NCBI GenBank assembly: GCA_047946875.1
Contig: CP181398.1
Span: 1,169,329-1,233,328 of the forward strand
Reading direction: 5' to 3'
Source: Candidatus Kerfeldbacteria bacterium
GTDB taxonomy: Bacteria; Patescibacteriota; Patescibacteriia; UBA10025; JAHIVO01
Length of the DNA stretch: 64,000 bases
The position numbers were made by a program, and so were the translations under genes. Below, piece by piece: positions 2,057 to 18,919 of the stretch. Below the pieces are notes generated by a model. That model was given only the letters and a program-made list of their open reading frames with translations. It made no database searches and was not told the origin of the DNA. The stretch's first letter is position 1. Each line of letters begins with the position of its first letter.

Positions 2057-3847
2057 ATGAGATTAAGAATAATTTTATCAACATTAGTCATTATCTTATT
2101 TATAGGTTGGCCGTTGACCGCTTTTTTGCGTTCAGCGCCTAATCAACCAATAAAACAAAACCTTTTGGACTCAGAGGTTAGTATTGAAAAATATATACAG
2201 ACGATGTTATATCCAAACACGCCATTCAAGGATTTTAATTCTGATGCTCCTTGGGTACATAGAGGAGGTTTGGATGAACAAATACCAATAATTTCATTTA
2301 TCAAGGATGCACATCTTGATAGTATAGGTTTGGATTATGTGGCTTTTTATAGATTGAATCCAGAGCAATTAGTAGCTGTTTATAATCCATCTGGTCTGGT
2401 AACTATAGATTCCCCTTTTTGGTATATAAGTCTCAATAACTTGACTCCGAATGATTTGGGATTAAATTACGGAGATGATCTGCAAATACGAATTAATATT
2501 AGGTTTAGGGATCAACTAATTTATCATACTTATAAATATTATCTTTCAATAGCTATACGTGGATCATTACCACAGCAGGATGGATGGTATCGTGGAGATA
2601 TCCATCATCATACTTTTTTTACTTCCGATATTTTTGAATACGGAGGATTTCCGGAATTTGACGTGAAAGCTGCAAAAGACATCGGTATGGATTGGATTGC
2701 TTTCACTGATCACTCTTATGATGTATCGGCTTCGGAGTGGGAAAATTTGAAAACTACTGCTCAAGAAAATTCAACCGACGATTTTATTGTACTTCCGGGT
2801 ATGGAATTTTCAGTTGATAATAACAATTCAAATGATTTGGTGGATGATAGAGTTCATTTGTTAGGATTGGGATTTGACAGTTGGATATCAGGACCTGATA
2901 TTGTTCCGGGATTTGATGTTTTTGGTTCACAACCAAGGGTTATGACAGATATTTTGGATGATATAGAAACACAAGGAGGAGTTTCATATGCAGCTCATCC
3001 ATTATCAGAAATTACAGCATTGTCAAACTGGGGATTTATTAAGCCTTGGTCATCTACTAATTATACCGAAGCATTCGATTATGAATCTTTTGTAGGAATG
3101 GAAATTTTTAACAGACGTCAGACGTCATTTAATAACACGGGAATTACAACTGACAATGTAAATCCATTCCCATGGAGTTTGAATTCCAATTGGGATACGG
3201 AATGGCAGGATGGAATTACTAAGTTCAATCAATTAGTAGGAGATAATTTGGACAGGAAAATATTTTTTTCCGGTGGTGCTGATGCACATGGAGATGCGAA
3301 TTTTGAAACAAGTAATAATTATGGATTGGTGGATGTTGCTGCAAATAACAATGCATTAGGTAAGGTTCATACAGTAGCTTATTTACCGAACGGTTTGAGC
3401 CAAGAAAACTTGTTATATGCATTAAAAAACGGCCATTCTATAGTAAGTGACGGGCCGTTAGTAAATATGAGTGTCAGAAGATCAGGGGGGTGTAGTAGCT
3501 GGACAGTAGGAAATATTGGAGATCGTATTAATTATAGTGGTAGTGACAAGTTATTAATTAGTGGGAAATCATCAGATGAATTCGGAGGATTGGAAACTGC
3601 TACAGTGCATATAATCAATTCGCTCGGACATAGTACGGAAAATTTTTCTTTCTCTGGAAATTATGATTTCCAAACATTATTATTATTTTCATTAAACCAA
3701 ACTGACACTTTCGCAGTTTGGACAGAAGTGGAAACCTCTTTAGGTTATAGGAGTTTTTCAAATCCTATTTGGTTTAATTTACCGGATTCCGCATTTAATT
3801 ATGATATTGTGGATCCATATCCGGTTGTTAATCAAAATTGTTATTAA
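2057..3847 (+). CDS. membrane-anchored PHP-domain (CehA/McbA-like) metal-dependent phosphoesterase
   Basis: ORF track, 596 aa. N-terminal hydrophobic anchor. PHP-type metal-ligand motifs GDIHHHT, AFTDHSY, HLLGLG, AAHP, GGADAHGD. TTGACA-type promoter upstream (~2000-2035). Confidence 0.75.
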   Translation: MRLRIILSTLVIILFIGWPLTAFLRSAPNQPIKQNLLDSEVSIEKYIQTMLYPNTPFKDFNSDAPWVHRGGLDEQIPIISFIKDAHLDSIGLDYVAFYRLNPEQLVAVYNPSGLVTIDSPFWYISLNNLTPNDLGLNYGDDLQIRINIRFRDQLIYHTYKYYLSIAIRGSLPQQDGWYRGDIHHHTFFTSDIFEYGGFPEFDVKAAKDIGMDWIAFTDHSYDVSASEWENLKTTAQENSTDDFIVLPGMEFSVDNNNSNDLVDDRVHLLGLGFDSWISGPDIVPGFDVFGSQPRVMTDILDDIETQGGVSYAAHPLSEITALSNWGFIKPWSSTNYTEAFDYESFVGMEIFNRRQTSFNNTGITTDNVNPFPWSLNSNWDTEWQDGITKFNQLVGDNLDRKIFFSGGADAHGDANFETSNNYGLVDVAANNNALGKVHTVAYLPNGLSQENLLYALKNGHSIVSDGPLVNMSVRRSGGCSSWTVGNIGDRINYSGSDKLLISGKSSDEFGGLETATVHIINSLGHSTENFSFSGNYDFQTLLLFSLNQTDTFAVWTEVETSLGYRSFSNPIWFNLPDSAFNYDIVDPYPVVNQNCY

Positions 3848-3922: not shown

Positions 3923-4099
3923 ATGAAGTGTGGCAATTGTAGTGGGACGGGTAGAACATATTGGGGTACATGCAATAAGTGCCATGGAAAAGGAAGATGC
4001 GGAGGGAAAAGAAAAAGTAAATCCCGACGTGTTTTACGGGGAAAGGCCCGTAGACATCCGCTTTCAGTAGCTAAGAGGAAACGCCGTTGGGCGTTATAA
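3923..4099 (+). CDS. small DnaJ-type zinc-finger protein with basic tail (58 aa; below ORF-track cutoff)
   Basis: Own translation: MKCGNCSGTGRTYWGTCNKCHGKGRCGGKRKSKSRRVLRGKARRHPLSVAKRKRRWAL. Two CxxCxGxG motifs. GGAGG at 3914-3918, 4 nt before the ATG. Terminator immediately downstream. The antisense track ORF 3907-4107 is probably spurious. Confidence 0.55.
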   Translation: MKCGNCSGTGRTYWGTCNKCHGKGRCGGKRKSKSRRVLRGKARRHPLSVAKRKRRWAL

Positions 4100-4105
4100 A
4101 TTATC

Positions 4106-4140
4106 AAGCCCTGTCTATTGATAGGGCTTTTATTTATTTA
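4106..4140 (+). terminator. Rho-independent terminator
   Basis: AAGCCCT (4106-4112) / AGGGCTT (4123-4129) stem followed by a T-rich run. Confidence 0.65.
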
Positions 4141-4328
4141 TATTTGTTTTTTAAATTTTACGCTTCTGGAGCAATAAAATTACGAGCAATCCATTTGCAT
4201 GCTAGTCAGGTATATACTAGAGCACGAGTTGGTGAACATGGAGAAAAAGCATCCAGGCAATTTTTTACACAGGAGACTTTTACTCAGATATATCCTAAAA
4301 TAAATAAAATGATTAATTTGTAATAATT

Positions 4329-4454
4329 TTAGATTTTACCTTTTCTCTTTTTTGCCTTCTCTTCAAGCATAATCCTCTTTGCTTCGAGTCTTTTTGCTGT
4401 TTTGTGAGACTTAGTCTTTTTTTTCTTACCTACTCCCGTAGCTCTTTTTGCCAT
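4329..4454 (-). CDS. possible small lysine-rich basic protein (41 aa)
   Basis: Own translation: MAKRATGVGKKKKTKSHKTAKRLEAKRIMLEEKAKKRKGKI. No clear SD and no recognised family. Confidence 0.3.
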   Translation of the reverse strand: MAKRATGVGKKKKTKSHKTAKRLEAKRIMLEEKAKKRKGKI

Positions 4455-4522
4455 ATATATTTTATTTAATAATATTACTTATCGTATATCATTGGGTGAA
4501 ATAATGCAATAAAAAAGTTTTA

Positions 4523-4581
4523 TTAGATTATAGGTATATGATAAACTTAATGTAGGAGGTTAAGTTATTAATAGTATAAAT
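4523..4581 (+). promoter_or_regulatory. conserved promoter/5'UTR module, copy a
   Basis: ttagattataggtatatgataaacttaatgtaggaggttaagttattaatagtataaat then ATG. Contains an extended -10 (TGATAAACT). Nearly identical modules at 5148-5206 and 9041-9099. Confidence 0.6.
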
Positions 4582-4902
4582 ATGGAAGAACAAAACCAAA
4601 AACAACCAACTCAGCAGCAATCAGTACTGCAGTCCGAGGAACACAGAAAAGGAAAAATTAATTTTTCACAAGCATTCTCCAAGTTAAGTAAATATTCTAA
4701 AAGATTTTTTATTGTTTGTGAATTATTACTTGCTATAGTTGTAATATTATACTTAATGTATGAATATACCCCCTCCTGGTCTGGTTGGGTTGAATTTGTT
4801 CTGCTGTCGTATTTTTTATTTATTGTAAATATTATATATTTAATAGCAATTATTATTTTTCTCTTAACACATAAAAATTATAATGGATTGTGTGTGTGGT
4901 AG
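4582..4902 (+). CDS. small integral membrane protein (106 aa); N-terminus MEEQNQK paralogous to 5520-5951
   Basis: ORF track. Hydrophobic C-terminal half. Preceded by the conserved promoter module. Confidence 0.55.
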   Translation: MEEQNQKQPTQQQSVLQSEEHRKGKINFSQAFSKLSKYSKRFFIVCELLLAIVVILYLMYEYTPSWSGWVEFVLLSYFLFIVNIIYLIAIIIFLLTHKNYNGLCVW

Positions 4903-5071
4903 GTTTTATATACTATTTGTTAATACCTATTATTCTAATTACATCAGTGGTATTTTTTAACTGGTACTGGAACTATTTTTAAAGAATTATTTTTTTATAA
5001 AAAAATAAAAACACCTCACGAGAGAATAAGATGTTTTTTCTTGGAGAGACATCTAAATACTCAGTTATTTT

Positions 5072-5106
5072 CCCAGGTGGCTATCGTAAGATTATTCGAA
5101 CCCCAC
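5072..5106 (-). pseudogene. decayed tRNA-His-like 3' fragment
   Basis: cccaggtggctatcgtaagattattcgaacccc resembles the plus-strand text of the tRNA-His 3' part (tggggtggctagagggaatcgaaccctc). Followed about 45 nt later by promoter module b. Confidence 0.3.
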
Positions 5107-5147
5107 ATTCTGCGGGACAAGCCAATCTCAAAATCATTGAGGTTTTA

Positions 5148-5206
5148 TTGGATTTTGGGTATATGGTAGACTTAATATAGGAATTTAAGTTATTAATAGT
5201 ATAAAT
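5148..5206 (+). promoter_or_regulatory. conserved promoter/5'UTR module, copy b
   Basis: ttggattttgggtatatggtagacttaatataggaatttaagttattaatagtataaat then ATG. Extended -10 TGGTAGACT. Confidence 0.6.
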
Positions 5207-5509
5207 ATGAATTTAGGTACAACAAACATAATTTTTATAATTATATTATCATTACTTTCGATAGTTTTGGTTATATATATAGCATATTTATTTTTTAGAG
5301 TTAAAAAAGATGATAATAATAATCAAAAGACACTATATAGGTTTTTGAATTATAAACAAGTTATTACAATTGTTGTAATAGTATTGTTGGCCTTCACAAT
5401 AACAAAGGTGTCTAAAAGTTGGGAAAATTTTATATTACCATTTTATCTTCTTATTATTTTAATAATATTAGGAGTAATAGTAATTCCAAAATTATCAAAT
5501 AAAAAATAA
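5207..5509 (+). CDS. small integral membrane protein (100 aa)
   Basis: ORF track. Two or three hydrophobic helices. Confidence 0.55.
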   Translation: MNLGTTNIIFIIILSLLSIVLVIYIAYLFFRVKKDDNNNQKTLYRFLNYKQVITIVVIVLLAFTITKVSKSWENFILPFYLLIILIILGVIVIPKLSNKK

Positions 5510-5519
5510 AGGTGTAAAT

Positions 5520-5951
5520 ATGGAAGAACAAAATCAAAAACATACAACATTTCAGCCAGAAGAACCTAAGAATAAAACTTTTAAAAAAATAAAAATCTTT
5601 AGTAGATGTGTATGGGGATTATTTTCAGTTCTAATTGTTTTAAGGAATCTATTTGGCATCGAAATTCCTTTTATAATATTTCAATTTATTGCTTCTATTT
5701 TTTTTATAAGCGGGGTTTTTTCTTTTTGGGTGTTTGCTAACCGTGGAATTAAAGATGTTCGTTTACTTGTTAAATTTCAACTTTGGCAATATTTTTATAT
5801 TGCCTCTGTAGTATTACTAGGTATTTTTACTGCAAATCCTGATGTTAATCAGATGGATGTATTAATATTTTCTATGATTTTTGTTACGTATCTATTGGGA
5901 GAAGCGGCTAATTATTACGAAAAAAAGACTGAGGCTTCAGAAAAAAAATAA
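5520..5951 (+). CDS. small integral membrane protein (143 aa), paralogue of 4582-4902
   Basis: ORF track. Shares the MEEQNQK N-terminus. Ends in an A8 tract (5941-5948). Confidence 0.6.
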   Translation: MEEQNQKHTTFQPEEPKNKTFKKIKIFSRCVWGLFSVLIVLRNLFGIEIPFIIFQFIASIFFISGVFSFWVFANRGIKDVRLLVKFQLWQYFYIASVVLLGIFTANPDVNQMDVLIFSMIFVTYLLGEAANYYEKKTEASEKK

Positions 5952-6127
5952 AACAAAACTTTTTAAAGATTGGAAATTTTGGGTGTGGGTAATAATTGTC
6001 CTATTGGTTGCTGCTTTTATTATATATAGTAGTTGATAATTATAATGCCACAAAAGGATTTAATTAAAGTATATTAAAAAATTCTGCTTATCGGCAGGCA
6101 GGCACCTTAAGAGGCGGGATTTTTTGA

Positions 6128-6245
6128 TTGGGGTCGGATAGCCCGTCCGCCACAGCTTCGCCGTAGGCGTGCCGGGCGGGCTGTTTACCCCGTCCTTCAT
6201 GGAAGGCGGGGTAAATTTTAGAACTTATTTATTAAGAGGTGTTTT
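6128..6245. repeat. copy of the 11291-11335 repeat (tRNA-His 3'-end-like) carrying two GC-hairpin insertions
   Basis: ttggggtcggatagc + [39-nt GC palindrome 6143-6181] + tgttta + [~29-nt hairpin 6188-6216, ccccgtccttcatggaaggcgggg] + ttagaacttattta. The uninterrupted version at 11291-11335 reads ctggggtcggatagctgtttatcttagaacttattta. Confidence 0.7.
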
Positions 6246-6250
6246 ATTAT

Positions 6251-7048
6251 TTATTTTTTCAATTCAACTACATCAAGTGTGCGATTATAAATCGATGCTG
6301 TCTGGCCGGCATCAACATTCCAGCCAACCTGAAAAGTATGTGATCCAGCAGTAACATCTACCAAGGCATTGAAGGCCATGTTAAATGGACCGCCGGAAGA
6401 AGCGGCAGTTCCTCTTCTAATGGTGTGATCAACTATTGTCCCATCAACAATTAAAAAAGTCCTGGCTGAAACAAAGTCATTATTAATACTAAATACCCCA
6501 CTGAAATTAATTAATACGGTGCTGGCGCCAGTTGTAACAACAATAGTTTCATCTAAAATATCATAATTTGGGGAATTTTGTGTTGTTGTATCCGTAGTTG
6601 TTCCATAAGCTTCACTCGTTTGAGTTATGGCGCCGGCTGCAATATTGGTAGATGTTACTATCCCTGTCCCCATCAAACTTCCCACCGTCAATGATCCGAT
6701 TACTTCCATATTATCATTTACGATAAATGGCATGGTATCACTTGTCCCAGCTGTAGCACCACGCCAAACACGACCGTCTATTCTTACATTATCTCCAAAG
6801 GTCACAGGGTTATCAACACTATTGGTTGTTGTATCGTTTACAATAGAGCCGTTAAAGTAAGTTACTCCTCCAATATCCTGTTCCCCGATCATAATTGAAC
6901 GCATTTTCATAGTTCCATCAACTTGATAAATATCTCCTTCCGGTCCAAATTGGGAGGTGACATTGTGTGTGGCCGCAGCATTTACAATCCCCACCGTTAA
7001 TGCGATGGAAATGATCACTACCAACGATGTTATTAGTTTTTTGTTCAT
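6251..7048 (-). CDS. secreted fibre-like protein, paralogue A (conserved N-terminal half, C1q/TNF-like-looking C-terminal head)
   Basis: ORF track, 265 aa. Signal peptide ending VNA-A. About the first 130 aa align with 15173-16045 and 16160-17077. The C-terminus is unrelated to theirs. Confidence 0.8.
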   Translation of the reverse strand: MNKKLITSLVVIISIALTVGIVNAAATHNVTSQFGPEGDIYQVDGTMKMRSIMIGEQDIGGVTYFNGSIVNDTTTNSVDNPVTFGDNVRIDGRVWRGATAGTSDTMPFIVNDNMEVIGSLTVGSLMGTGIVTSTNIAAGAITQTSEAYGTTTDTTTQNSPNYDILDETIVVTTGASTVLINFSGVFSINNDFVSARTFLIVDGTIVDHTIRRGTAASSGGPFNMAFNALVDVTAGSHTFQVGWNVDAGQTASIYNRTLDVVELKK

Positions 7049-7066
7049 AAATTTTATGTTTAATGA

Positions 7067-7267
7067 TTATTTATCTTTACACTCTTTGAATATTGTGTCA
7101 CTAGTGCAATCAATATTAGTGCATGGCACCAGTACGCTTAAGCAACTGTCGTCCATTTTGCATTCTTGTTCATTTAATTCAGAGCAAGTTTTACTTCCGG
7201 TAAACAGTATCACGGCGCCAATGATTAATATGATTATGACAATTATTATAATTATATTTTTATTCAT
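7067..7267 (-). CDS. small membrane-anchored cysteine-rich protein
   Basis: ORF track 7067-7294. Probable start at the internal MNKNIIII (7267). Six Cys in the exposed part. Confidence 0.5.
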   Translation of the reverse strand: MNKNIIIIIVIIILIIGAVILFTGSKTCSELNEQECKMDDSCLSVLVPCTNIDCTSDTIFKECKDK

Positions 7268-7275
7268 ATTTTTTC

Positions 7276-7479
7276 TTATAAATCTAAAATCCATTCCAGC
7301 AGTTCAATTTGTTTTTCCAGTAATTTTTTCTTATATTTCATTTTAATTTTCCAATCTTTTTCGAAAGAATGGCTATCTTCATCAACTTCCTCTTCCATTT
7401 CTTCTACTTCCTCGTTAATTTCTTCCAGTTCTAATTCCAATTCATCTAATTTGTCTGTAATTTGTTCTTGATTTTTCAT
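7276..7479 (-). CDS. small acidic coiled-coil protein (67 aa)
   Basis: ORF track. E/D-rich heptad-like sequence. Confidence 0.45.
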   Translation of the reverse strand: MKNQEQITDKLDELELELEEINEEVEEMEEEVDEDSHSFEKDWKIKMKYKKKLLEKQIELLEWILDL

Positions 7480-7491
7480 ATTTTTTAAAAA

Positions 7492-8376
7492 TTAAAGCTC
7501 TGTAATATAGGTAACAAATATTTCATTATTATCAACTGGATTTATAATTCCTTGCACTATTACAGTTGAGTCTTCATCGAAGAGGTTATTAGTCATGGCA
7601 TCTGTACATTTTGGACGGCTGAAACCTTTTATACATGTACTAATAAAGTCCATAGTATCAAATGTCAATTTTTTATTTAAGGCTGGGCTACCTGGTTCAT
7701 CCCATACTAAGTTCCAATAATTTTCACCGGCTGGTTGAGATAGGTTTCCGCTTTGTTCAAAATCAGTTACCAAAGGATTAATAAATTCAAAATTATTAAG
7801 CATATTTTCTTGAATGTTTGAGTTAGTAGTATTAAGTTCTTGGGTAGTTGAACCCCAAGAAATGCGGTACATATAATTATTATTTGTGACATAGACTGTG
7901 GCACCTGTATCATTCTCATGAGTGTTTCTGGTTAATTTTATGCCATTTTCACCATCAACTTTAATATTTGTTTTTTGATAACCGTCTTGTTCTAACAATC
8001 CAATCTCTGACCAGGTTTCCAATGTTTCACCTGATAGGTCGGCTACATAAATAAAAAAACTGGAATATTTGTAGTCAGATATATCAGCTACACTGGCAAA
8101 TGAGTTGGTGGCGGGTGGAGGAGGACCAGTTACTGCGTCCGGTATATAAAACCAACTGGTTGGATAATCAACTGTGAAATGATAGTTATTGTTGATGAAA
8201 GTTTTCCATTCTGTAACTTTATTTGTATTATTATTGGATATAGGGGAAATGTTTAGATTGGTATTGTCTTCCACATTTTGATCTTGGTTTACTAGATACC
8301 AGGTGAGTCCCCCGCCTAGAATTAAGATTACGAGTATTATAATGAAAATACTACTAACCCCATTTTGATGTTTCAT
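7492..8376 (-). CDS. N-terminally anchored surface protein (294 aa)
   Basis: ORF track. N-terminus MKHQNG + TM helix + N-rich linker. Confidence 0.75.
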   Translation of the reverse strand: MKHQNGVSSIFIIILVILILGGGLTWYLVNQDQNVEDNTNLNISPISNNNTNKVTEWKTFINNNYHFTVDYPTSWFYIPDAVTGPPPPATNSFASVADISDYKYSSFFIYVADLSGETLETWSEIGLLEQDGYQKTNIKVDGENGIKLTRNTHENDTGATVYVTNNNYMYRISWGSTTQELNTTNSNIQENMLNNFEFINPLVTDFEQSGNLSQPAGENYWNLVWDEPGSPALNKKLTFDTMDFISTCIKGFSRPKCTDAMTNNLFDEDSTVIVQGIINPVDNNEIFVTYITEL

Positions 8377-8384
8377 ATTTTTAA

Positions 8385-8954
8385 TTAATTTAATAAATTA
8401 TCTAAGTTTGTACAGTCTAGATATTCATCGTCCGTACAGCAACTTACATTATCATAGGTGCCGTCGGCTCTGTTGCACCAAGGTTGGTCAGAAGAACACT
8501 TTATTATTACTTTTTTTGTATCTTTATAAATAATTTTTTGTGGCCAAGACCACTCACAATAAAATTCTGCAGTTTGATCAATTTCACTATTAATGTTTGT
8601 TGTAACGGTATTAGTGTTGATTGTAGTATTTACATTTATTATAGCCTTATTAACATTAGTAGTGGTATTAATATTTATTACTTTTTCATCATCCTCTTTC
8701 TCTATTTCAATATTTGTTATATCTGCGATGATTTCATCTAATTCTTTTTGGGTTGGATCAAATCCTGTATCATTAGTACATTGTTCTGGACAATAGGTTT
8801 TGGATGAATCCATTATTAGTAAGTCATAACAAACCTCCATACATTTGGAGAATTGTCCTTTTTTTGTTACTCCACCTTGGGACCAGATCAATAACAAAAT
8901 CACACCAGCTATAATCACAATACCTAGGCTGATGAATATTTTCTTTTTATTCAT
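8385..8954 (-). CDS. N-terminally anchored Cys-rich surface protein with N/T-rich linker (189 aa)
   Basis: ORF track. Confidence 0.7.
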   Translation of the reverse strand: MNKKKIFISLGIVIIAGVILLLIWSQGGVTKKGQFSKCMEVCYDLLIMDSSKTYCPEQCTNDTGFDPTQKELDEIIADITNIEIEKEDDEKVININTTTNVNKAIINVNTTINTNTVTTNINSEIDQTAEFYCEWSWPQKIIYKDTKKVIIKCSSDQPWCNRADGTYDNVSCCTDDEYLDCTNLDNLLN

Positions 8955-9040
8955 AGTATTATATGAAAATTATTAGATATCCAATGTTCACTTATTATTA
9001 TAGCTAATATTAGTAGATACTTAAAGGGGCTGAAATTTTA

Positions 9041-9099
9041 TTAGATTTTGGGTATATGGTAGACTTACTTTGGTAGGTTATATTATTAAGATATTTATT
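9041..9099 (+). promoter_or_regulatory. conserved promoter/5'UTR module, copy c
   Basis: ttagattttgggtatatggtagacttactttggtaggttatattattaagatatttatt then ATG at 9100. Confidence 0.55.
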
Positions 9100-10212
9100 A
9101 TGAAAAATAAAACAATATTTATTGGATTTATAATAGGTGTAGGTATTTTACTATTGGCTGTGATTGGGAATTATTTTAGTAAGGATAATATGACGAAGGA
9201 TGAAGGTATTTTTTCAAATGTTGTCCAAGATAACATAATACAAAGTAACATTAATATATTAGAGGTATCAGATGTGCCAGAAGACTGTGATGTTGTTTTT
9301 ACCCATCGGTTTACAGATATTACAAAAATCAATGCTATCCAGCCAATTGGCTCTATCACCGGCGCTTCTCCTGGTCGTAGTTATTTGGATATTAAAGAAG
9401 GAGAAACTGTCCCGGTATACGCCCCAATGGATGCCACATTAAAATTTATTGCATATTCATATCGTGGCCCAGAGGCGCCTTACCCAGAATATGGTTTTAG
9501 TTTTGATACTGGTTGTGGGGTAACTTTTATGTTAGATCATTTGGACACAATATCGGATGAATTAAAGCAATATGCGCCTATTGAGCCTTCACTAGCAACT
9601 GACGGTACTAATAATCTTTCGGTTGAGGTTGAGGCGGGAACACTTCTGGGATATACTGATGGAACAGAACAGGCTAAAACTTTTGACTTTTTGGTAATAG
9701 ATAAAAATACTGACGTTTTTCATATTAATCCGGAACGATGGGACTGGGATCAAGCGTTGCATGCTGTCTGTCCGTATGATCTATATACAGATGATTTGAA
9801 AAGTGAGTATTATGAAAAAATTGGGACATATTATTACACAGGATTTGTAAAAGCAGAGAGCTGTGGTAATCCATCATACGATATTGTTGGAACAATTTCC
9901 GGTGGGTGGTTTTTGGGAGAAAACGATACGATGATGACTGGTGAGTTTATGACAATTGGCGAGGAGGGTGGTAATGTGTACACAATTGTCAAAAATAATC
10001 TGGAAGATGTAATAATACGCGTGGATGATTACTGGACAGAAGTCATGCCAAAAGATGTTAAGGTTGGGAGTTCAGCATGCTATTTTGACAACAACACAGA
10101 TACTTGGATGTTTTTGAATTTAGTAAGTGAAGAAACCATCCAGCTTGCAAATGGAAATGGGAATTGTCCTGTAGAGTTTCCAGATTCTAATATAAAGATT
10201 TATTCGAGATAG
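9100..10212 (+). CDS. N-terminally anchored surface protein (about 370 aa)
   Basis: ORF track 9070-10212. ATG at 9100 (MKNKTIFIGF...) preferred by analogy with modules a and b. No confident domain. Confidence 0.75.
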   Translation: MKNKTIFIGFIIGVGILLLAVIGNYFSKDNMTKDEGIFSNVVQDNIIQSNINILEVSDVPEDCDVVFTHRFTDITKINAIQPIGSITGASPGRSYLDIKEGETVPVYAPMDATLKFIAYSYRGPEAPYPEYGFSFDTGCGVTFMLDHLDTISDELKQYAPIEPSLATDGTNNLSVEVEAGTLLGYTDGTEQAKTFDFLVIDKNTDVFHINPERWDWDQALHAVCPYDLYTDDLKSEYYEKIGTYYYTGFVKAESCGNPSYDIVGTISGGWFLGENDTMMTGEFMTIGEEGGNVYTIVKNNLEDVIIRVDDYWTEVMPKDVKVGSSACYFDNNTDTWMFLNLVSEETIQLANGNGNCPVEFPDSNIKIYSR

Positions 10213-10218
10213 TCTTTA

Positions 10219-10295
10219 TTGGGGTCCCTATCGGTCGGTTAATTTAACTAACCTGATGAAGGTTTTGGGTGATTTTAGGTATATGGTAGGAATAT
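10219..10295. repeat. tRNA-His-3'-end-like remnant plus orphan copy of the promoter module
   Basis: ttggggtccctatcggtcgg (10219-10238) then ggttttgggtgattttaggtatatggtagg. No plus-strand ORF follows. Confidence 0.4.
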
Positions 10296-10313
10296 TAAAG
10301 CAAGCCTCAGTAT

Positions 10314-11078
10314 TTATCTAAGGGACTCAATGCATCCTTCATCTGTTTCAATTGAACAAGATTCGCTTAATGTTGTTCCTCCACTAGTGATATCATATAA
10401 ATGTGTCCACACTGTACCGACGCCTGCATCACCAGCTGCGCACATATAGGTAATTACGTTAGTAGTAGACCAGTTTTTTATTGTGCTACATCCCTCATAG
10501 AATGATAAGCTGTGTTCTTCTGCTTTTGTGAAAGTATTTTCACTAATATTGTAAATTCCAAGTTGACTTGTACCGTATGAGTCCTTGTCAGGGTCGTAGC
10601 GATAGGGACTATCTTTTTGTGATTTTAAGTATATAGTTTTATTAAGCTCTTCATTAAAACATACAATATCAAGACCCCACCCTTCAATTATTTGGTCTGA
10701 GAATGTTTGATACCACAAATATTGATTAGTAAGTTCTCCTGGTTGTCTTGAACAACTAAGTTGATATGATGCTTCAGTAGCTTCAATAGAAAAGATGTTT
10801 GTTTCTGAAGTCGCATTTGTGTTTGTCGTTATCGGAGTAGTATTAGTATTTATTTCAGTATTTAAGTTAGTTGTGATATTTGCATTTGCTGTCGTATTAG
10901 TATTCAAATTTAGTGAGGTGTTTGTAACCGTATTTGTATTTGTTGTAGTAGTGGTAGTTGGTGTATTTGCTTCTTCCCTATTCTCCTCATAATACCAAGT
11001 AGCACCAACCAATCCTACGGCCATAACTGAGATTAGTATTACCACCACCCAACGCACATAACCTTTTTGATTTTTCAT
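10314..11078 (-). CDS. N-terminally anchored surface protein with long T/N-rich linker
   Basis: ORF track 10314-11099. Start at MKNQKG (11078) preferred, by analogy with MKHQNG and MNNQRG in the related genes. Confidence 0.75.
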   Translation of the reverse strand: MKNQKGYVRWVVVILISVMAVGLVGATWYYEENREEANTPTTTTTTNTNTVTNTSLNLNTNTTANANITTNLNTEINTNTTPITTNTNATSETNIFSIEATEASYQLSCSRQPGELTNQYLWYQTFSDQIIEGWGLDIVCFNEELNKTIYLKSQKDSPYRYDPDKDSYGTSQLGIYNISENTFTKAEEHSLSFYEGCSTIKNWSTTNVITYMCAAGDAGVGTVWTHLYDITSGGTTLSESCSIETDEGCIESLR

Positions 11079-11160
11079 AGTTATAAATTTAATATTCAAT
11101 AATTTAAGTATACCAAAAACGACCCTAATAACATATCTATAGGGTAACTTTTATAAAATG

Positions 11161-11335
11161 GGTGGTTAGACCTGCCTACCGGCAGGCAGGGGGAATTACG
11201 CGTCGCCTATTGGCTCGCTTCTACCCGTCCGATTCCCATTTTATCCCATATCAAAAAAAGTTCCACCATATAAATATGATAAAACTTTTTCTGGGGTCGG
11301 ATAGCTGTTTATCTTAGAACTTATTTAATGGATGG
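11161..11335. repeat. direct repeat of the tRNA-His downstream flank plus last ~12 nt of tRNA-His
   Basis: Aligns by eye (~80 percent) with 11720-11905, including ...catatcaaaaaaa...tttttctggggtNgg. Contains the GC hairpin cctgcctaccggcaggcagg (11171-11190). Confidence 0.7.
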
Positions 11336-11425
11336 ATTGGAGGTATATGGAGTGGTTAATAACATAGTTTAGTAGTTTGTGATATAATTAATACATAAAA
11401 AAGAATTAATATTAATTTTATTTAT

Positions 11426-11656
11426 ATGGGCGATCACGTAATTTTAAGATTTCCATTCGACGACCCTGACAATCCAGAGGTAGTTGATGTTCTGGCTAAT
11501 GTACCGGTTCATTGGAAAAAATATCTTAAAGAAATCGCACATAAGACAAAAAAACCAGGAAGATATATTGCGTCTAACATTCTTTATGATGACGAGTATT
11601 ACTATCCCGAGTCAATGGAAAAAAATCATAAAAAAATTGAAAAGGAATCAGAGTAA
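11426..11656 (+). CDS. hypothetical protein (76 aa)
   Basis: ORF track. Lies between the two tRNA-His flank repeats. No domain recognised. Confidence 0.4.
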   Translation: MGDHVILRFPFDDPDNPEVVDVLANVPVHWKKYLKEIAHKTKKPGRYIASNILYDDEYYYPESMEKNHKKIEKESE

Positions 11657-11719
11657 TTTTTGAATGATTCAAGACCAAATTATAGATAGTTACCAAAAAT
11701 ACCTCTTAATATTAAAGGC

Positions 11720-11892
11720 GTTTTTAGAAAAGCCGGCAGGGAGAATTTCGCGTCGCCAAAGGCTCCTTGTCCTGGGTAGCGACCCCGCGGTGCGGGGTCG
11801 ACTCTTGCCTTCGTCTCGCTTCTATCCGTTCGATTCCTATTTTGCCCCATATCAAAAAAATTTCATCATCTACAAGGGATAATAAAATTTTT
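11720..11892. repeat. tRNA-His downstream flank (master copy of the 11161-11305 repeat) with GC-hairpin insertion
   Basis: Carries an extra segment containing cgaccccgcggtgcggggtcg (11780-11800) that is absent from the 11161 copy. Track ORF 11664-11882 is probably spurious. Confidence 0.65.
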
Positions 11893-11968
11893 CTGGGGTG
11901 GCTAGAGGGAATCGAACCCTCATAGCTGGTTCCACAAACCAGTGCACTAACCGTTGTGCTATAGCCAC
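11893..11968 (-). tRNA. tRNA-His (GTG), CCA encoded, G-1 present
   Basis: rc: G-GTGGCTA TA GCAC AACGGTTA GTGC A CTGGT TTGTGGA ACCAG CTAT GAGGG TTCGATT CCCTC TAGCCAC C CCA. Confidence 0.9.
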
Positions 11969-12112
11969 CACGTTGATTTTACATTCCAGGTTACGTATCT
12001 CCGCATTCGCGAATTTACTCCACCTTTCATGTAAATCTGCCTTTCCTCACACATCTGTGCTCATTTTATTGCGCTCCTGATGTGTTCGGGATGTTTAATG
12101 TAAAAAATCAGT
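11969..12112 (-). ncRNA. tRNA-proximal structured spacer element, divergent copy L1 (tRNA-Leu to tRNA-His)
   Basis: GAGGAAAGG purine tract. P1 GATTTACAT / ATGTAAAATC. GGTGGAG...ACGTAACC core. Ends AACG before the tRNA. Confidence 0.45.
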
Positions 12113-12198
12113 TGGTGCGGACGGAGGGACTTGAACCCTCACGCACAAAAGTGCCTAGGCCCTCAACCTAGTGCGTATACCAATTCCGCCACGTCCGC
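12113..12198 (-). tRNA. tRNA-Leu (GAG), long variable arm, CCA encoded
   Basis: rc: GCGGACG...CTAGG TTGAGGG CCTAG...GGGTTCAAGTCCC...CGTCCGC A CCA. Confidence 0.9.
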
Positions 12199-12216
12199 CG
12201 GCCATTTATGTTAAAA

Positions 12217-12561
12217 CTATTTTTTAACTTTAGTCTCTTTTAGTCGTTTCTTATAATCTTTTAAGAAGTATAGTTTTGCTCGACGTACTTTAGCTTTTTT
12301 AACAATCTCAATTTTTGAGATTGAAGGAGAATTCAAAGGAAATATTTTCTCTACACCAATACCTTCGGAAATCTTTCTTACAGTAATAGTGGAAGTTAGA
12401 CCTTTACCACCGCGTCGTGATAGGACCATTCCTTCAAATTTTTGGATACGCTCTTTTTCACCTTCTTTAATTTTTTGATGAACAATAACGGTGTTACCAG
12501 CACTGATATCTGGCAAATCTTGTTTTACTTTTGATGTATTCAGTGAATATGCAGTTACCAT
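12217..12561 (-). CDS. rplS: 50S ribosomal protein L19
   Basis: ORF track. VRRAKLYFLKD and overall L19 pattern. Confidence 0.95.
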   Translation of the reverse strand: MVTAYSLNTSKVKQDLPDISAGNTVIVHQKIKEGEKERIQKFEGMVLSRRGGKGLTSTITVRKISEGIGVEKIFPLNSPSISKIEIVKKAKVRRAKLYFLKDYKKRLKETKVKK

Positions 12562-15172: not shown

Positions 15173-16045
15173 TTAGTATATTGCCAGCATAAATACACCA
15201 TCGGCAGGATTTTCATCTTTATCATGTTCCCAAACTAAAACGGTATTTGGATCAGATGCATGAGGAGCAGCGCCAATTAATCTAATAGCAACAGCACCGC
15301 CTGTACCACTTGGAGTAGCGATGTAAGCTCTAGTTGGTGTACCTGAACCATTATTTACAGCAAAATTGAAAGTTACTTCATATCTACCATTGCCAGTATT
15401 TGTGGCAGCAGTAGCATTATATCCACTAGTTAACGTACCTCCTGAACTAACATAGGCCCATCCTTTTAATGCTCCTTCAGCAGATACGGCCTGGGTGATG
15501 TTACCAGTAGTAGTGACTGTGTCAATACTAAGATCGGCAGTTGAGGATATATCGCTTCCAGTGATGGTTCCATCGACAATTTTAGCTGAGGTAATTGCAT
15601 TATCAGCAATGTCAGCGGTGGCAATTGTAGCATCAGTAATATTGTCAGATGTTACTATCCCAGTACCAAGTAAACTTGCTACTGTTAATGATCCAGTAAC
15701 TTCCATATTGTCATTGACAATAAATGGCATTGAATCTGCAGTACCAGCTGTTGCTCCGCGAAAAACACGTCCATCTATACGGACGTTATCACCAAAAGTA
15801 ACGGGATTGTCTACTCCGGCGTTTGTTGTGGTATTGATTATAGATCCATTGAAGTAGGTTACTCCACCTACACCCTGTTCACCGATCATCGTTGATCTCA
15901 TTTTCATTGTCCCATCTACTTGAAATATGTCTCCTTCTGGTCCAAATTGTGAAGTGACATTGTGACTAGTTGCAGCATTGACTATCCCAGCTGTCAAAGC
16001 AATAGAAGCAACTACCACTACGAGGGTTAAAAGCTTTTTTTTCAT
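15173..16045 (-). CDS. secreted fibre-like protein, paralogue B
   Basis: ORF track, 290 aa. Signal peptide VNA-A. The N-terminal ~145 aa are almost identical to paralogue C. I-x-D-x-x-I-T repeat stalk. Unique C-terminal domain. Confidence 0.8.
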   Translation of the reverse strand: MKKKLLTLVVVVASIALTAGIVNAATSHNVTSQFGPEGDIFQVDGTMKMRSTMIGEQGVGGVTYFNGSIINTTTNAGVDNPVTFGDNVRIDGRVFRGATAGTADSMPFIVNDNMEVTGSLTVASLLGTGIVTSDNITDATIATADIADNAITSAKIVDGTITGSDISSTADLSIDTVTTTGNITQAVSAEGALKGWAYVSSGGTLTSGYNATAATNTGNGRYEVTFNFAVNNGSGTPTRAYIATPSGTGGAVAIRLIGAAPHASDPNTVLVWEHDKDENPADGVFMLAIY

Positions 16046-16114
16046 AGGCCTTTTCCTTGTTTAGTTGTTAAATTGATAAATAATCACGATTTTATTATAC
16101 CCTTTTTTTGATAA

Positions 16115-16151
16115 ACAAAAAACCGCCCTAGTTGATAGAGGCGGTTTTTTC
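16115..16151. terminator. bidirectional hairpin terminator after fibre paralogue C
   Basis: AACCGCC (16121-16127) / GGCGGTT (16140-16146) flanked by an A-run and a T-run. Confidence 0.65.
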
Positions 16152-16159
16152 AAAAGTTT

Positions 16160-17077
16160 TTACATTTCGTAAATTATAAAACTAAATGAAGTTTGGCCAG
16201 CTGACCCGGTAGATTCGTCTACAAAATCAACAGTAAAATGATCATTTACGCTATTTGTAGCCGGAATAAATCCAGAATTTATCGGTGTAACAACCGCTAC
16301 ATGAGTAAGATAAGAATAAGTTACCCCAGTAATAGTAATTTCATATTGATTACTACCACCGTCCCAGGAACAAGCTATGTTACTGGTACCACCTCTATCA
16401 GAGCCATCTGAATTACAATAACCATAGGCAATAGGCAGATTGGCACCGCCCGTACCATTGATCTTGTCAGGTGTTATAGCGTCATCAGCTACATCTGCTG
16501 TAGCAATAGTTCCGTCTGTAATTTTTGAACTAATTATTGAGTTACTGGCTAAATCTCCAGATACAATAGTTCCGTCTGTAATTTTAGCTGAGGTAATAGC
16601 ATCATCATCAATTTTTGCAGTTGTAATTACGCTATCAGCTATGTCTGCTGTAGCTATAGTAGCGTCAGTAATATTGTCAGATGTTACTATCCCGGTACCA
16701 AGTAAACTTGCTACTGTTAATGATCCAGTAACTTCCATATTGTCGTTGACGATAAAAGGTTGAGTGTCTCCTGTTCCGGCAGTTGCTCCGCGAAAAACAC
16801 GTCCGTCAATACGAACATTATCACCAAAAGTTACGGGATTGTCTACACCGGAGTTTGTAGTGGCATTGATTATAGATCCATTGAAGTAAGTTACTCCACC
16901 AACACCTTGTTCACCGATCATAACTGATCTCATGTTCATTGTTCCATCTACTTGAAATATGTCTCCTTCTGGTCCAAATTGTGAAGTGACATTGTGACTA
17001 GTTGCTGCGTTGACTATCCCAGCTGTCAAAGCAATAGAAGCAACTACCACTACGAGGGTTAAAAGCTTTTTTTTCAT
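16160..17077 (-). CDS. secreted fibre-like protein, paralogue C
   Basis: ORF track, 305 aa. Longer I-x-D-x-x-I-T repeat stalk. Unique Cys-containing C-terminal domain. Confidence 0.8.
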   Translation of the reverse strand: MKKKLLTLVVVVASIALTAGIVNAATSHNVTSQFGPEGDIFQVDGTMNMRSVMIGEQGVGGVTYFNGSIINATTNSGVDNPVTFGDNVRIDGRVFRGATAGTGDTQPFIVNDNMEVTGSLTVASLLGTGIVTSDNITDATIATADIADSVITTAKIDDDAITSAKITDGTIVSGDLASNSIISSKITDGTIATADVADDAITPDKINGTGGANLPIAYGYCNSDGSDRGGTSNIACSWDGGSNQYEITITGVTYSYLTHVAVVTPINSGFIPATNSVNDHFTVDFVDESTGSAGQTSFSFIIYEM

Positions 17078-18431: not shown

Positions 18432-18575
18432 TGGTGGGACGTAGAGGATTTGAACCTCTGACCGTTTGCTTCCCGCCTTTCGGACGGGACAAGTAAGAGG
18501 CAACTTTATCCCGCTAAGAATTGGCGGGATGCTCTACTTTACCCCGCCTATTAAAGGCGGGGCGAGCTGAGCTAA
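18432..18575 (-). pseudogene. decayed partial tRNA-Lys copy (nt ~8 to CCA) split by three GC hairpins
   Basis: ggtgggacgtagaggatttgaacctctgaccgtttgctt[cccgcctttcggacgggac]aagtaagaggcaact[ttatcccgctaagaattggcgggat]gctctac[tttaccccgcctattaaaggcggggc]gagctgagctaa, compared with the intact gene at 18843-18919. The 5' acceptor strand is missing. Confidence 0.8.
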
Positions 18576-18803
18576 TTTATTTTTATATTGATGATTTTTC
18601 TTTTTTAGCCACAATTCGTGCCTCCTTGCCTCTTTATAAGAATGGTGTTTTTTAAAATATACAAGTTTAAATAGTTTATATTTTGAACTGCTGTTGAGTT
18701 TTCCTTGGTTGTGTTCGTGAATACGTTTCCAAGGTTGTATAGAAATACCACAATAATATTTATTAAACTTATTACTATATATTAAGTACGTATAAACATT
18801 CAT
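18534..18803 (-). CDS. GIY-YIG nuclease superfamily protein (89 aa)
   Basis: YTYLIYSNKFNKYYCGIS...RIHEHNQG fits the GIY...YIG...R..H/E pattern of small URI-domain proteins. The C-terminal LAQLAPPLIGGVK is encoded by the dead tRNA-Lys copy plus a GC hairpin. Confidence 0.7.
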   Translation of the reverse strand: MNVYTYLIYSNKFNKYYCGISIQPWKRIHEHNQGKLNSSSKYKLFKLVYFKKHHSYKEARRHELWLKKKNHQYKNKLAQLAPPLIGGVK

Positions 18804-18842
18804 AAAATTTCCCTTTTATTATTTATTAGAAGGGAAGGTTTT

Positions 18843-18919
18843 TGGTGGGACGTAGAGGATTTGAACCTCTGACCGTTTGCTTAAGAGGCAACTGCTCTAC
18901 CAAGCTGAGCTAACGTCCC
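18843..18919 (-). tRNA. tRNA-Lys (CTT), CCA encoded
   Basis: rc: GGGACGT TA GCTC AGCTTGGTA GAGC A GTTGC CTCTTAA GCAAA CGGTC AGAGG TTCAAAT CCTCT ACGTCCC A CCA. Confidence 0.9.

What the first reader, a model, noticed from the sequence alone, without database searches (positions are those of the whole stretch)
5072..11968. Series of segments bounded by tRNA-His-3'-end-like repeats to the left of tRNA-His: a tandem islet or cassette-like array of surface-protein genes
Left of the tRNA-His 3' end (ctggggtggcta, 11891-11902) I see degenerate copies of that end at 11291-11305 (ctggggtcggatagc), 10219-10238 (ttggggtccctatcggtcgg), 6128-6142 (ttggggtcggatagc) and 5072-5106 (cccaggtggcta...ttcgaacccc). 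The first two also share about 130 bp of the tRNA-His downstream flank. Each repeat is followed within ~60 nt by a copy of the promoter module (gattttgggtatatggtagact; variants at 11330-11360, 10262-10295 and 5148-5206). The bounded segments carry only small membrane proteins or anchored/secreted surface proteins: 5207-5951; 6251-10212; 10314-11078; 11426-11656. This looks like serial site-specific integration at tRNA-His, or repeated recombination at an att-like site, building an accessory surface-protein array. No integrase lies inside it; the nearest is 19516-20397.
Basis: inference. Interest (0 to 1): 0.65.

Follow-up and report, generated by a model that had tools for sequence, protein, structure and literature searches.

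The report
tRNA-His-anchored accessory gene cassette array
Beside a histidine tRNA gene in this uncultured ultra-small bacterium, small membrane- and surface-protein genes are separated by worn copies of the tRNA's tail and of a conserved folded element; relatives suggest genes are swapped in and out here by a mechanism not yet described.

Summary
The repeats are real, but only partly as described. The "130-bp shared flank" is two copies (11722-11893 and 11157-11297) of a conserved, GC-rich, structured ~150-190-nt element that I call U. In related Patescibacteria, U follows tRNA-His and ends in a copy of the tRNA's last ~20 nt. The 11291 and 6128 repeats are two copies of one junction, also found in another genome (L166). 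The 10219 and 5072 repeats are weak alone, but they are homologous to each other and to an L166 module. Each boundary except 6128 is followed by an extended -10-like promoter module.

Relatives support recombination at these sites:
- Two 99.96%-identical strains diverge exactly at the end of the tRNA-His tail copy after U.
- One relative has two tandem cassettes bounded by 98%-identical U copies, while the cassette genes are only 22-38% identical.
- The 76-aa cassette (11307-11688) recurs at 86% nucleotide identity in a different context.

No recombinase lies inside the array. The mechanism, site-specific or homology-driven, is inferred.

About 7% of tRNAs in the fetched Patescibacteria loci carry a similar tail copy plus a structured element. 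None matches Rfam.

Verdict: a new variant of tRNA-anchored islands, with a possibly new element class.

The parts
11894..11968 (-). tRNA-His(GTG) with encoded CCA. It anchors the array. Its last ~20 nt (11894-11913) are the sequence copied downstream.
   Evidence: ARAGORN; Rfam tRNA 68.9 bits
11722..11893 (-). U1, a full copy of the conserved element. Order: A-run, weak terminator hairpin, T-run, an inverted copy of the T-loop (AGGAATCGAA), helix GGAUAG/CUACCC (the GGGCAG/CUGCCC helix of relatives), hairpin GUCGACCCCGCACCGCGGGGUCG, then AGGACAAGGAGCCTTTGGCGACGCG. Its terminal tRNA tail copy is degenerate or deleted (AAATTCTCCCTGCCGGC).
   Evidence: nhmmer with a profile built from relatives only: 11738-11900, E=3.7e-22. 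Alignment; blastn to L003, L004 and L085.
11307..11688 (+). The 76-aa cassette: a weak promoter-module copy (11333-11361), a sigma-70-like site with TG (11359-11388) and the ORF 11426-11656. It is shared as a unit with another genome.
   Evidence: 85.7% nt identity over 384 nt to L166 7469-7852, in a different context. Homologues 70-93% identical. Promoter scan.
11291..11331 (-). Junction repeat. On the + strand it reads CTGGGGTCGGATAGC TGTTTATC TTAGAACTTATTTA. It is a degenerate tRNA-His 3' remnant that abuts the start of U2.
   Evidence: The same junction occurs in L166 at about 7425-7480.
11157..11297 (-). U2, a decayed second copy of U that has lost the 3' strand of the conserved helix. 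It ends in a tRNA-His tail copy, TGGGTGGTTAGA (11159-11170) plus GGGAATT (11191-11197), split by the palindrome CCTGCCTACCGGCAGGCAGG (11171-11190).
   Evidence: nhmmer with the relatives-only profile: 11200-11297, E=1.8e-13.. Palindrome. Tail copy read directly.
10314..11078 (-). 254-aa protein with an N-terminal membrane anchor and a Thr/Asn-rich linker.
   Evidence: ORF list; no Pfam family
10215..10303 (+). A degenerate tail-like remnant (TTGGGGTCCCTATCGG..TTTAAC, 10219-10251) followed by an orphan promoter module (10260-10303) that points into the 3' end of a minus-strand gene.
   Evidence: 84% to L166 12257-12293.
9035..10212 (+). A promoter module (9035-9102) and a 370-aa anchored protein (9100-10212).
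   Evidence: The ORF is 82.7% nt identical to L171 4891-6006, in another gene order. Homologues 55-57% identical in DPANN archaeal MAGs.
6251..8954 (-). A block of five minus-strand genes (189, 294, 67, 75 and 265 aa). Four have an N-terminal anchor or signal. No internal repeat boundary.
   Evidence: ORF list. PsbP_2-like match in the 294-aa protein. The 265-aa protein has paralogues at 15173-17077 and homologues in L002, L011 and L166.
6086..6240 (-). A third junction copy: TTGGGGTCGGATAGC (6128-6142) and GT..TTAGAACTTATTTA (6211-6235), split by GC-rich hairpins (6143-6210). It is preceded by a hairpin and T-run (6086-6127). There is no U scaffold.
   Evidence: Fold z-scores -2.6 and -3.4.
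5142..5951 (+). A promoter module (5142-5209) driving two small multi-pass membrane proteins (100 aa and 143 aa).
5068..5106 (-). A relic of the tRNA-His 3' half. On the + strand it reads GGTGGCTA (acceptor 3' strand) and, 12 nt further on, TCGAACCCC (T-arm).
   Evidence: The joint pattern occurs only here and in the tRNA, and in 0 of 300 shuffles. It shares CTATCGTAAG.TTA with the L166 remnant. Not significant in the Smith-Waterman scan.
4517..4902 (+). The leftmost promoter module (4517-4584) and a 106-aa membrane protein. Its N-terminus MEEQNQK matches that of the 143-aa protein.

Best explanation
Window 4.5-11.9 kb is an accessory-gene array anchored at tRNA-His in a Candidatus Kerfeldbacteria genome. 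I propose it was built by repeated recombination at the 3' end of tRNA-His and at the conserved structured element (U) that follows it.

Proposed steps:
1. Each incoming segment carries a copy of the tRNA tail and its downstream flank (A-run, terminator, U).
2. It also carries one or a few genes transcribed away from that end, from their own extended -10-type promoter (TGnTAnAcT).
3. Integration pushes older segments outward. Their tail copies then decay and pick up GC-rich hairpin insertions.
4. No recombinase is encoded in the array, so the enzyme must act in trans. It could be a host Xer-like tyrosine recombinase acting on the palindromic T-arm or on folded U. Alternatively, RecA could use the ~150-190-nt tail-plus-U homology as a landing pad.

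Shown: the repeats, their homology to the tRNA tail and to U, strain- and genus-level polymorphism at these sites, and the cassette shared in another context.
Inferred: the direction of events, the enzyme, and whether U acts as DNA or RNA.
For: - Two U copies in the window, detected with a profile built from relatives only (E=3.7e-22 and 1.8e-13).
- U2 ends in a 19/20 tRNA-His tail copy.
- The junction repeat occurs at 11291 and 6128 and again in L166.
- The 10219 and 5072 remnants are homologous to an L166 module.
- L004 and L085 are 99.96% identical over 2662 bp and diverge exactly after the tail copy that follows U.
- L003 has two tandem cassettes. Its U copies are 98% identical, but the cassette genes are only 22-38% identical at the amino-acid level.
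- In L003 the cassette abuts the tRNA itself. In L004 the same cassette (91% nt) abuts the copy after U.
- The 76-aa cassette 11307-11688 is 86% identical to L166 in another context. Its protein and the 370-aa protein have homologues on archaeal-type contigs or in archaeal MAGs.
- L171 and L166 carry the shared genes in different orders.
- Many contigs of relatives end within 0-200 nt of tRNA-His, as repeated U copies would cause.
- Tail copies are strongly directional: 24 of 337 tRNAs have one downstream on the same strand, against 0, 1 and 0 in three controls.
Against: - No integrase or other recombinase lies in 4.5-11.9 kb. The nearest (19516-20397) is a generic Xer-like enzyme in conserved synteny next to tRNA-Arg.
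- The window's tail copies are short and degenerate.
- U1 and U2 share the same palindrome insertion, so at least that duplication happened within this lineage.
- No same-species genome was available to show gain or loss at these exact coordinates.
- L166 and L171 have no tRNA on their contigs, so they may not be the orthologous locus.
- Base composition shows no clear island signature.
- The 265-aa family also occurs outside the array.
Confidence: 0.55

Rival explanations
1. Purely local evolution. Tandem segmental duplications by unequal crossing-over between promoter modules and U copies, followed by divergence and deletions, produced the repeats. No cassette was acquired from outside and there is no dedicated recombination site.
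For: - Promoter modules are 75-88% identical, and two ORFs share the N-terminus MEEQNQK.
- U1 and U2 share the same inserted palindrome fragment.
- There is no recombinase in the array.
- The 265-aa family has paralogues at 15173-17077.
Against: - Apart from that shared N-terminus, no similarity among the array genes came to light.
- The 76-aa cassette is 86% nt identical to L166, while the neighbouring 265-aa homologue there is only 71%.
- Homologues of two cassette proteins occur in archaeal MAGs or on archaeal-type contigs.
- L004 and L085 diverge precisely at the tail copy.
- In L003 the non-coding boundaries are 98% identical while the genes are 22-38% identical.
Confidence: 0.2
2. U is primarily a host non-coding RNA linked to its cognate tRNA, for example in tRNA processing, quality control or decoy functions. 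It is conserved for that role. Its duplication in the window and the neighbouring variable genes are incidental to an ordinary variable region next to a tRNA.
For: - U is retained at the same position after tRNA-His across genera whose L19 (rplS) is only 67-78% identical. It stays GC-rich in a 33% GC genome.
- The helix GGGCAG/CUGCCC is invariant and two inner helices show compensatory changes.
- The outer helix covaries with the tRNA type.
- In L008 the Leu-type U lies between tRNA-Leu and tRNA-His with no visible terminator, so it would be co-transcribed.
- The sense strand folds somewhat better than the antisense strand in several copies.
Against: - In most copies U sits behind a terminator-like hairpin with too little room for its own promoter.
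- Strain and genus polymorphisms break exactly at the U-linked tail copies.
- Clean insertions flanked by 18-56-nt direct repeats occur in L002 and L009.
- At least three unrelated sequence types share the same architecture, which looks more like a family of insertions than a single RNA gene.
- No Rfam family matches.
Confidence: 0.15
3. The short tggggt-type matches are chance, or a convergent by-product of terminator T-runs followed by G-rich sequence. There is then no repeat-bounded architecture.
For: - TTGGGGTC alone is expected about 1.1 times per window.
- The 5072 copy is below the null in the Smith-Waterman scan.
- The simple sigma-70 scan finds no excess of promoter-like sites.
Against: - The 15-mer and the 14-mer co-occur in order at two sites.
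- The remnants are conserved across genomes.
- The U copies have E-values of 1e-13 to 1e-22.
- The joint-pattern test for 5072 gave 0 of 300 shuffles.
Confidence: 0.03

Closest known systems
tRNA-anchored genomic islands grown by serial integration, for example Prochlorococcus tycheposons and their islands (bioRxiv 10.1101/2020.12.28.424599)
   Same: A full tRNA gene sits at one end. Partial tRNA 3' copies are scattered through a variable island in a streamlined genome. Newer segments push older ones outward, remnants degenerate, and the cargo is adaptive or accessory (paper passages read).
   Different: No tyrosine recombinase or replication module lies in or next to the array. Segments are very small (0.4-4 kb, 1-6 genes). 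Tail copies are ~20 nt rather than ~40 nt. They come with a conserved structured element (U) whose 5' arm is complementary to the T-loop part of the copy.
Integron cassette arrays and CALINs (clusters of attC sites without an integrase); comparison from my own knowledge
   Same: Small gene cassettes are bounded by imperfect-palindrome sites 60-140 nt long that can fold as hairpins. As in chromosomal integrons, the boundary sites are homogeneous and the cargo is diverse (L003). Some arrays lack a nearby integrase.
   Different: No IntI: the nearest recombinase matches Xer models best, with only a weak partial integron-integrase match. U carries none of the R''/L''/L'/R' attC motifs. Cassettes have their own promoters. 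The platform is a tRNA tail, not attI. No paper linking integrons to these sites in CPR was found.
Mobile elements that exploit host Xer recombinases (IMEX), such as CTX-phi, whose folded single-stranded attP mimics dif; comparison from my own knowledge
   Same: The element encodes no recombinase. A folded hairpin could mimic a chromosomal palindromic target. Here the outer helix of U reproduces the duplex of the tRNA gene's T-loop and T-stem.
   Different: The target would be a tRNA T-arm, not dif. No phage or filamentous element is involved. Xer involvement is untested.
IS200/IS605-type non-autonomous elements (PATEs) and TnpB right-end (omega) RNAs; comparison from my own knowledge
   Same: In U a guide-like sequence sits just 5' of a hairpin foot and pairs with sequence 3' of the hairpin. 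A structured scaffold is followed by ~17-20 nt identical to the flanking target. Orientation is strict.
   Different: No TnpA or TnpB is nearby. Direct repeats of 18-56 nt are not a feature of IS200/IS605 transposition. The arm pairing is 7 bp, not 4.
Free-standing GIY-YIG homing endonuclease genes in tRNA regions, such as T4 SegB; comparison from my own knowledge
   Same: In this window and in the fetched loci, small GIY-YIG ORFs sit next to tRNA genes, in several cases with a duplicated tRNA 3' part and the same arm-hairpin-copy layout.
   Different: The tRNA-His array and the U elements contain no GIY-YIG gene. Classical homing does not duplicate the target.

Membership tests
tRNA-anchored genomic island built by integrase-mediated serial integration | An intact tRNA gene at one border | tested here: met
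   tRNA-His at 11894-11968
tRNA-anchored genomic island built by integrase-mediated serial integration | Direct repeats of the tRNA 3' part at the segment borders, in the same orientation | tested here: met
   Copies at 11159-11197 (19/20, split by an insertion) and 5076-5106. Degenerate copies at 11291, 10219 and 6128, linked by homology. Relatives have clean 17-35-nt copies.
tRNA-anchored genomic island built by integrase-mediated serial integration | An integrase encoded in the element, next to an att site | tested here: not met
   No recombinase domain among the ten largest array ORFs. The nearest is a Xer-like enzyme at 19516-20397, 7.6 kb away.
tRNA-anchored genomic island built by integrase-mediated serial integration | Presence/absence polymorphism with breakpoints at the repeats | tested here: inconclusive
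   Met in relatives (L004 vs L085; L003 vs L004). No same-species genome was available for the window itself.
tRNA-anchored genomic island built by integrase-mediated serial integration | Excised circular form or an empty site detectable | not testable with these tools
   Needs raw reads or PCR.
Integron or CALIN | An IntI-type integrase with its specific extra domain next to attI | tested here: not met
   The 293-aa recombinase scores 154 bits on the XerD and XerA models, but only 76 bits on the integron-integrase model (cut-off 265), over the C-terminal 76 residues.
Integron or CALIN | attC sites with R''(RYYYAAC)...R'(GTTRRRY) and a conserved hairpin geometry | tested here: not met
   U folds as a hairpin, but its conserved sequences are GAA(G/C)GGGCAG...CUGCCCAGGAC with tRNA-specific arms. 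There is no attC consensus. No dedicated attC model was run.
Integron or CALIN | Promoterless cassettes expressed from a common Pc promoter | tested here: not met
   Each segment has its own promoter-like module, and the segments lie on both strands.
Any described RNA family (Rfam 15) | A covariance-model match at or near the gathering score | tested here: not met
   Only tRNAs and noise at E up to 10 in window 4000-12300, and at E up to 1 in L003, L004, L008, L010, L025, L054 and L137.
Conserved tRNA-linked U element, type 1 (defined here from relatives) | Position after the cognate tRNA in the same orientation; a 5' arm complementary to the T-loop part of a terminal tRNA tail copy; the GGGCAG/CUGCCC helix; an AGGAC linker | tested here: met
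   U1 has all blocks, with one compensatory pair and one mismatch in the conserved helix. Its terminal copy is degenerate. U2 has the 5' half and the terminal copy only.
IS200/IS605 PATE or TnpB right-end RNA | TnpA or TnpB in the genome neighbourhood, subterminal hairpins, no target duplication | tested here: inconclusive
   No such ORF turned up in the parts of the window examined, which were not scanned exhaustively. Direct repeats of 18-56 nt argue against it.

The most novel reading that the evidence does not exclude
The U elements may be an undescribed class of tRNA-specific structured elements that is widespread in Patescibacteria. There are at least three sequence types. Each has a 5' arm complementary to the T-loop and T-stem part of a terminal copy of the cognate tRNA's last 17-23 nt.

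They could act as folded recombination sites (like attC, or like the folded CTX-phi attP) or as guide-like RNAs. Either way, they would let recombinase-less micro-cassettes dock at tRNA 3' ends, including genes exchanged with DPANN archaea. That would amount to an integron-like gene-capture platform for ultra-small, host-dependent bacteria.
Probability: 0.3. Interest if true: 0.8.

Novelty: new variant of a known kind. Interest (0 to 1): 0.62.

Why it matters
Patescibacteria have tiny genomes and live attached to host cells. Their surface and membrane proteins are probably what determines who they can attach to, and how such genes turn over is poorly understood.

This locus and its relatives suggest that small promoter-bearing cassettes are exchanged at tRNA 3' ends without an element-encoded integrase. 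The cassette boundaries carry a conserved folded element that is absent from Rfam.

If the element is the recombination site or a guide, it would define a new gene-capture mechanism. It would also be a practical marker for finding accessory cassettes in metagenome-assembled genomes, and for explaining the contig breaks next to tRNAs. The sharing of cassette genes with DPANN archaea also makes CPR-DPANN gene flow directly testable.

Tried and rejected
- **Known RNA families:** Rfam at gathering and at permissive thresholds found nothing but tRNAs in the flanks or in the U elements of relatives.
- **Small ORF in U:** it reads PGQGAFGDA in the window and in L003, but the conserved blocks fall in different reading frames, so I dropped it (by eye).
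- **tRNA pseudogene or tmRNA in U:** ARAGORN and Rfam were negative.
- **Phage attP origin of U:** two pattern scans of IMG/VR gave 0 hits and 3 chance hits in GC-rich coding DNA with no tRNA.
- **Same-species comparison:**
  - The rplS-based scans of genome and metagenome collections found nothing closer than 80% L19 (rplS) identity.
  - Exact-protein look-ups returned only two short 100%-identical contigs, which end at 4309 and 12198. That assembly is fragmented everywhere, so the breaks mean little.
  - Several array proteins were "not on record". I first read this as strain variation and then withdrew that, because the 370-aa protein is in the protein database at 100% identity.
- **Whole-flank folding** gave weak z-scores (-0.7 to -1.4). 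Only the 6.1-kb hairpins stood out.
- **Sigma-70 consensus scan** showed no excess. Reading the module as an extended -10 promoter (TGnTAnAcT) is mine, by eye.
- **Composition profile** showed no island-like GC shift.
- **Literature searches** for integrons or att sites in CPR, and for tRNA-linked GIY-YIG elements, found no description of this architecture.

Full report
**Setting.** The window is about 33% GC. Its 370-aa protein is 100% identical to a protein that NCBI names from a Candidatus Kerfeldbacteria MAG. On the minus strand lie rplS (12217-12561), tRNA-Leu (12113-12198) and tRNA-His (11894-11968, with CCA encoded). The order rplS, tRNA-Leu, tRNA-His is kept in eleven related genomes whose L19 (rplS) is 67-78% identical. 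The DNA after tRNA-His is not conserved among them.

**Checking the observation.**
- The 15-mer at 11291 and its one-mismatch copy at 6128 are the only matches in 64 kb. They are co-linear with an exact 14-mer, TTAGAACTTATTTA. In the 6.1-kb copy the two halves are separated by 61-67 nt of GC-rich hairpins.
- The shared "130-bp flank" is real: 79-83% identity in two blocks across a ~50-nt indel.
- The promoter module occurs five times, all on the + strand and only between 4.5 and 11.4 kb. By eye it carries an extended -10 motif (TGGTAGACT, TGATAAACT; TGGTAGAAT and TGATATACT in L171). The simple sigma-70 scan does not single it out.
- The 10219 copy shares only an 8-mer with 6128, which is at chance level. 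The 5072 copy failed a Smith-Waterman test. However, GGTGGCTA followed by TCGAACC occurs only there and in the tRNA itself, and in 0 of 300 shuffled windows.

**What the flank is.** In relatives, tRNA-His is followed by an A-run, a terminator hairpin and then a GC-rich element that I call U. U has four parts in order:
- an inverted copy of that tRNA's own T-loop;
- the helix GGGCAG...CUGCCC, enclosing variable hairpins;
- the linker AGGAC;
- a direct copy of the tRNA's 3' end, from the T-loop to CCA (17-35 nt).

The window's two flank copies are homologues of U. With a profile built from relatives only, U1 (11738-11900) scores E=3.7e-22 and U2 (11200-11297) scores E=1.8e-13. No other copy exists in the window. 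U2 ends in TGGGTGGTTAGA plus GGGAATT, a 19/20 match to the tRNA tail, split by a 20-nt palindrome that also occurs between tRNA-Pro and tRNA-Phe. U1 keeps part of the same palindrome but has lost the tail copy. U1 and U2 therefore duplicated within this lineage.

**U is a family, not a His-specific flank.**
- The same core follows tRNA-Lys, tRNA-Leu and tRNA-Arg in relatives. In each case the arms match that tRNA: GGATTCG/CGAATCC, GGACTCG/CGAGTCC, GGAATCG/CGATTCC, GACTTG/CAAGTC.
- On seven non-His copies the outer helix is 88% paired, with two pairs changed on both sides. The inner helix is invariant. Controls with the partner slid by 1-3 columns pair only 25-46%.
- RNAalifold on twelve copies adds two inner helices with compensatory changes.
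- At least two other sequence types share the architecture.
- Among 337 distinct tRNAs in the fetched loci, 24 have a copy of their last 17 nt within 600 nt downstream on the same strand. The three controls gave 0, 1 and 0.
- Nothing matches Rfam 15, and nothing turned up in IMG/VR.

**Evidence that these sites are recombination points.**
- L004 and L085 are 99.96% identical over 2662 bp and become unrelated exactly after the tail copy that ends U.
- L003 has two tandem ~1.7-kb cassettes, each with two secreted-protein genes on the opposite strand. Each ends with about 250 nt of conserved upstream DNA plus U and a tail copy. The U copies are 98% identical, but the proteins are only 22-38% identical.
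- The first L003 cassette abuts the tRNA itself. Its 91%-identical counterpart in L004 abuts the copy after U.
- L002 and L009 show clean ~140-175-nt insertions flanked by direct repeats: 23 nt in L002, and at least 20 nt (about 56 nt by eye, with one mismatch) in L009.
- Many contigs of relatives stop within 0-200 nt of tRNA-His, as repeated U copies would cause.

**The window's cassettes.**
- Window 11307-11688 (promoter, 76-aa ORF and 32 nt beyond) is 85.7% identical to L166 7469-7852. There it sits beside a homologue of the window's 265-aa gene, with no tRNA on the 12-kb contig.
- L166 also carries the junction GGGTCGGATAGCTGTTTA[hairpin]TTTATCTTAGAAC and a promoter module. It further has a segment that joins homologues of window 10215-10251 and 5124-5156. 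This shows that the 10219 and 5072 repeats belong to one conserved module family.
- Other homologues of the 76-aa protein (71-75% identical) lie on contigs with archaeal-type genes. In L173-L177 the gene sits directly upstream of tRNA-Ala, with different DNA after the tRNA in different contigs.
- The 370-aa gene is 82.7% identical to L171, where the neighbours differ and another promoter module follows it. Its next-closest homologues (55-57%) include proteins that NCBI names from Nanoarchaeota and Woesearchaeota MAGs.
- The cargo is mostly small multi-pass membrane proteins or proteins with an N-terminal anchor. Pfam adds little.

**Reading the array.** Following the tRNA's direction, the pattern repeats several times: a tail copy or remnant, then an A-run with a terminator (with or without U), then genes, then a promoter module pointing back towards them. 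Serial integration at a tRNA would leave this layout if each incoming DNA carried a tail-plus-flank copy. The closest described analogue is the Prochlorococcus tycheposon islands.

**Limits.** No recombinase lies inside the array. The nearest is a Xer-like enzyme next to tRNA-Arg, in conserved synteny with L003. Site-specific recombination, homology-driven Campbell-type integration through the ~150-190-nt U, and some local duplication cannot be separated with these data. I put 0.55 on repeated recombination at tRNA-His-derived sites by any of these routes. Within that, site-specific recombination is somewhat more likely, because of the precise T-loop-anchored repeats seen across the phylum.

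**Novelty.** tRNA-linked islands are ordinary. Three things are unusual here: very small promoter-bearing cassettes without an integrase; boundaries formed by a conserved structured element with tRNA-specific arms; and cassette genes shared with DPANN archaea. I file the array as a new variant of a known kind. The U family may prove to be a new class of element.

Noticed in passing
window 18432-18919 (- strand): tRNA-Lys(CTT) at 18843-18919 is followed by an 89-aa GIY-YIG ORF (18534-18803) and then a partial copy of the tRNA-Lys 3' half. The copy is 18494-18505 plus 18432-18470 (exact through CCA), split by a 23-nt GC hairpin at 18471-18493. It looks like a one-gene insertion that duplicated the tRNA's 3' half.
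   Followed up: partly
fetched loci, e.g. L023 7798-8109, L094 10590-10841, L110, L091, L005: Small GIY-YIG ORFs (78-115 aa) lie within 84 nt of a tRNA gene on the same strand in 17 of 19 cases. At least L023 and L094 also have a downstream tRNA tail copy, and L094 also shows the inverted T-loop arm and GC hairpins in front of it.
   Followed up: partly
window 48314-48363: A 50-nt degenerate copy of the 3' half of tRNA-Pro lies 22 nt downstream of tRNA-Pro (48387-48461, - strand).
   Followed up: no
window 11171-11190, 48520-48539, 6092-6102, 29119-29129: A 20-nt GC-rich palindrome, CCTGCCTACCGGCAGGCAGG, and half copies of it recur in an AT-rich genome. One copy splits the tRNA-His tail copy and another lies between tRNA-Pro and tRNA-Phe. 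Window 11146-11197 is also 78% identical to 48513-48566 on the opposite strand. It looks like a small REP-like insertion element.
   Followed up: partly
window 18920-19219: A 300-nt, hairpin-rich spacer with about 50% GC lies between tRNA-Arg and tRNA-Lys in a 33% GC genome. It has no Rfam match at gathering thresholds. Its nature is unknown.
   Followed up: no
window 9100-10212 and 11426-11656: The 370-aa protein has homologues 55-57% identical that NCBI names from Nanoarchaeota and Woesearchaeota MAGs. The 76-aa protein has homologues 71-75% identical on contigs with CDC48 and diphthine-ammonia-ligase genes. This suggests gene exchange between CPR bacteria and DPANN archaea.
   Followed up: partly
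L173-L177: The same 76-aa protein (identical in all five contigs) sits 17 nt upstream of tRNA-Ala(GGC). The DNA after the tRNA differs between contigs from related samples: a GIY-YIG gene and a restriction-modification system in L173 and L176, and something else in L175 and L177. This looks like another tRNA-linked variable site.
   Followed up: partly
L008 4229-4480: The tRNA-Leu gene lacks an encoded CCA (…GTCCGCATTTAG), but the tail copy at the end of its U element has it (…GTCCGCACCACACG). This fits the downstream copy being the displaced original 3' end.
   Followed up: no
window 2057-3847: The 596-aa protein left of the array matches the CehA/McbA metallohydrolase domain (NCBIfam 84 bits, cut-off 80). 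It is identical on a short contig (L082) that ends at window 4309.
   Followed up: no
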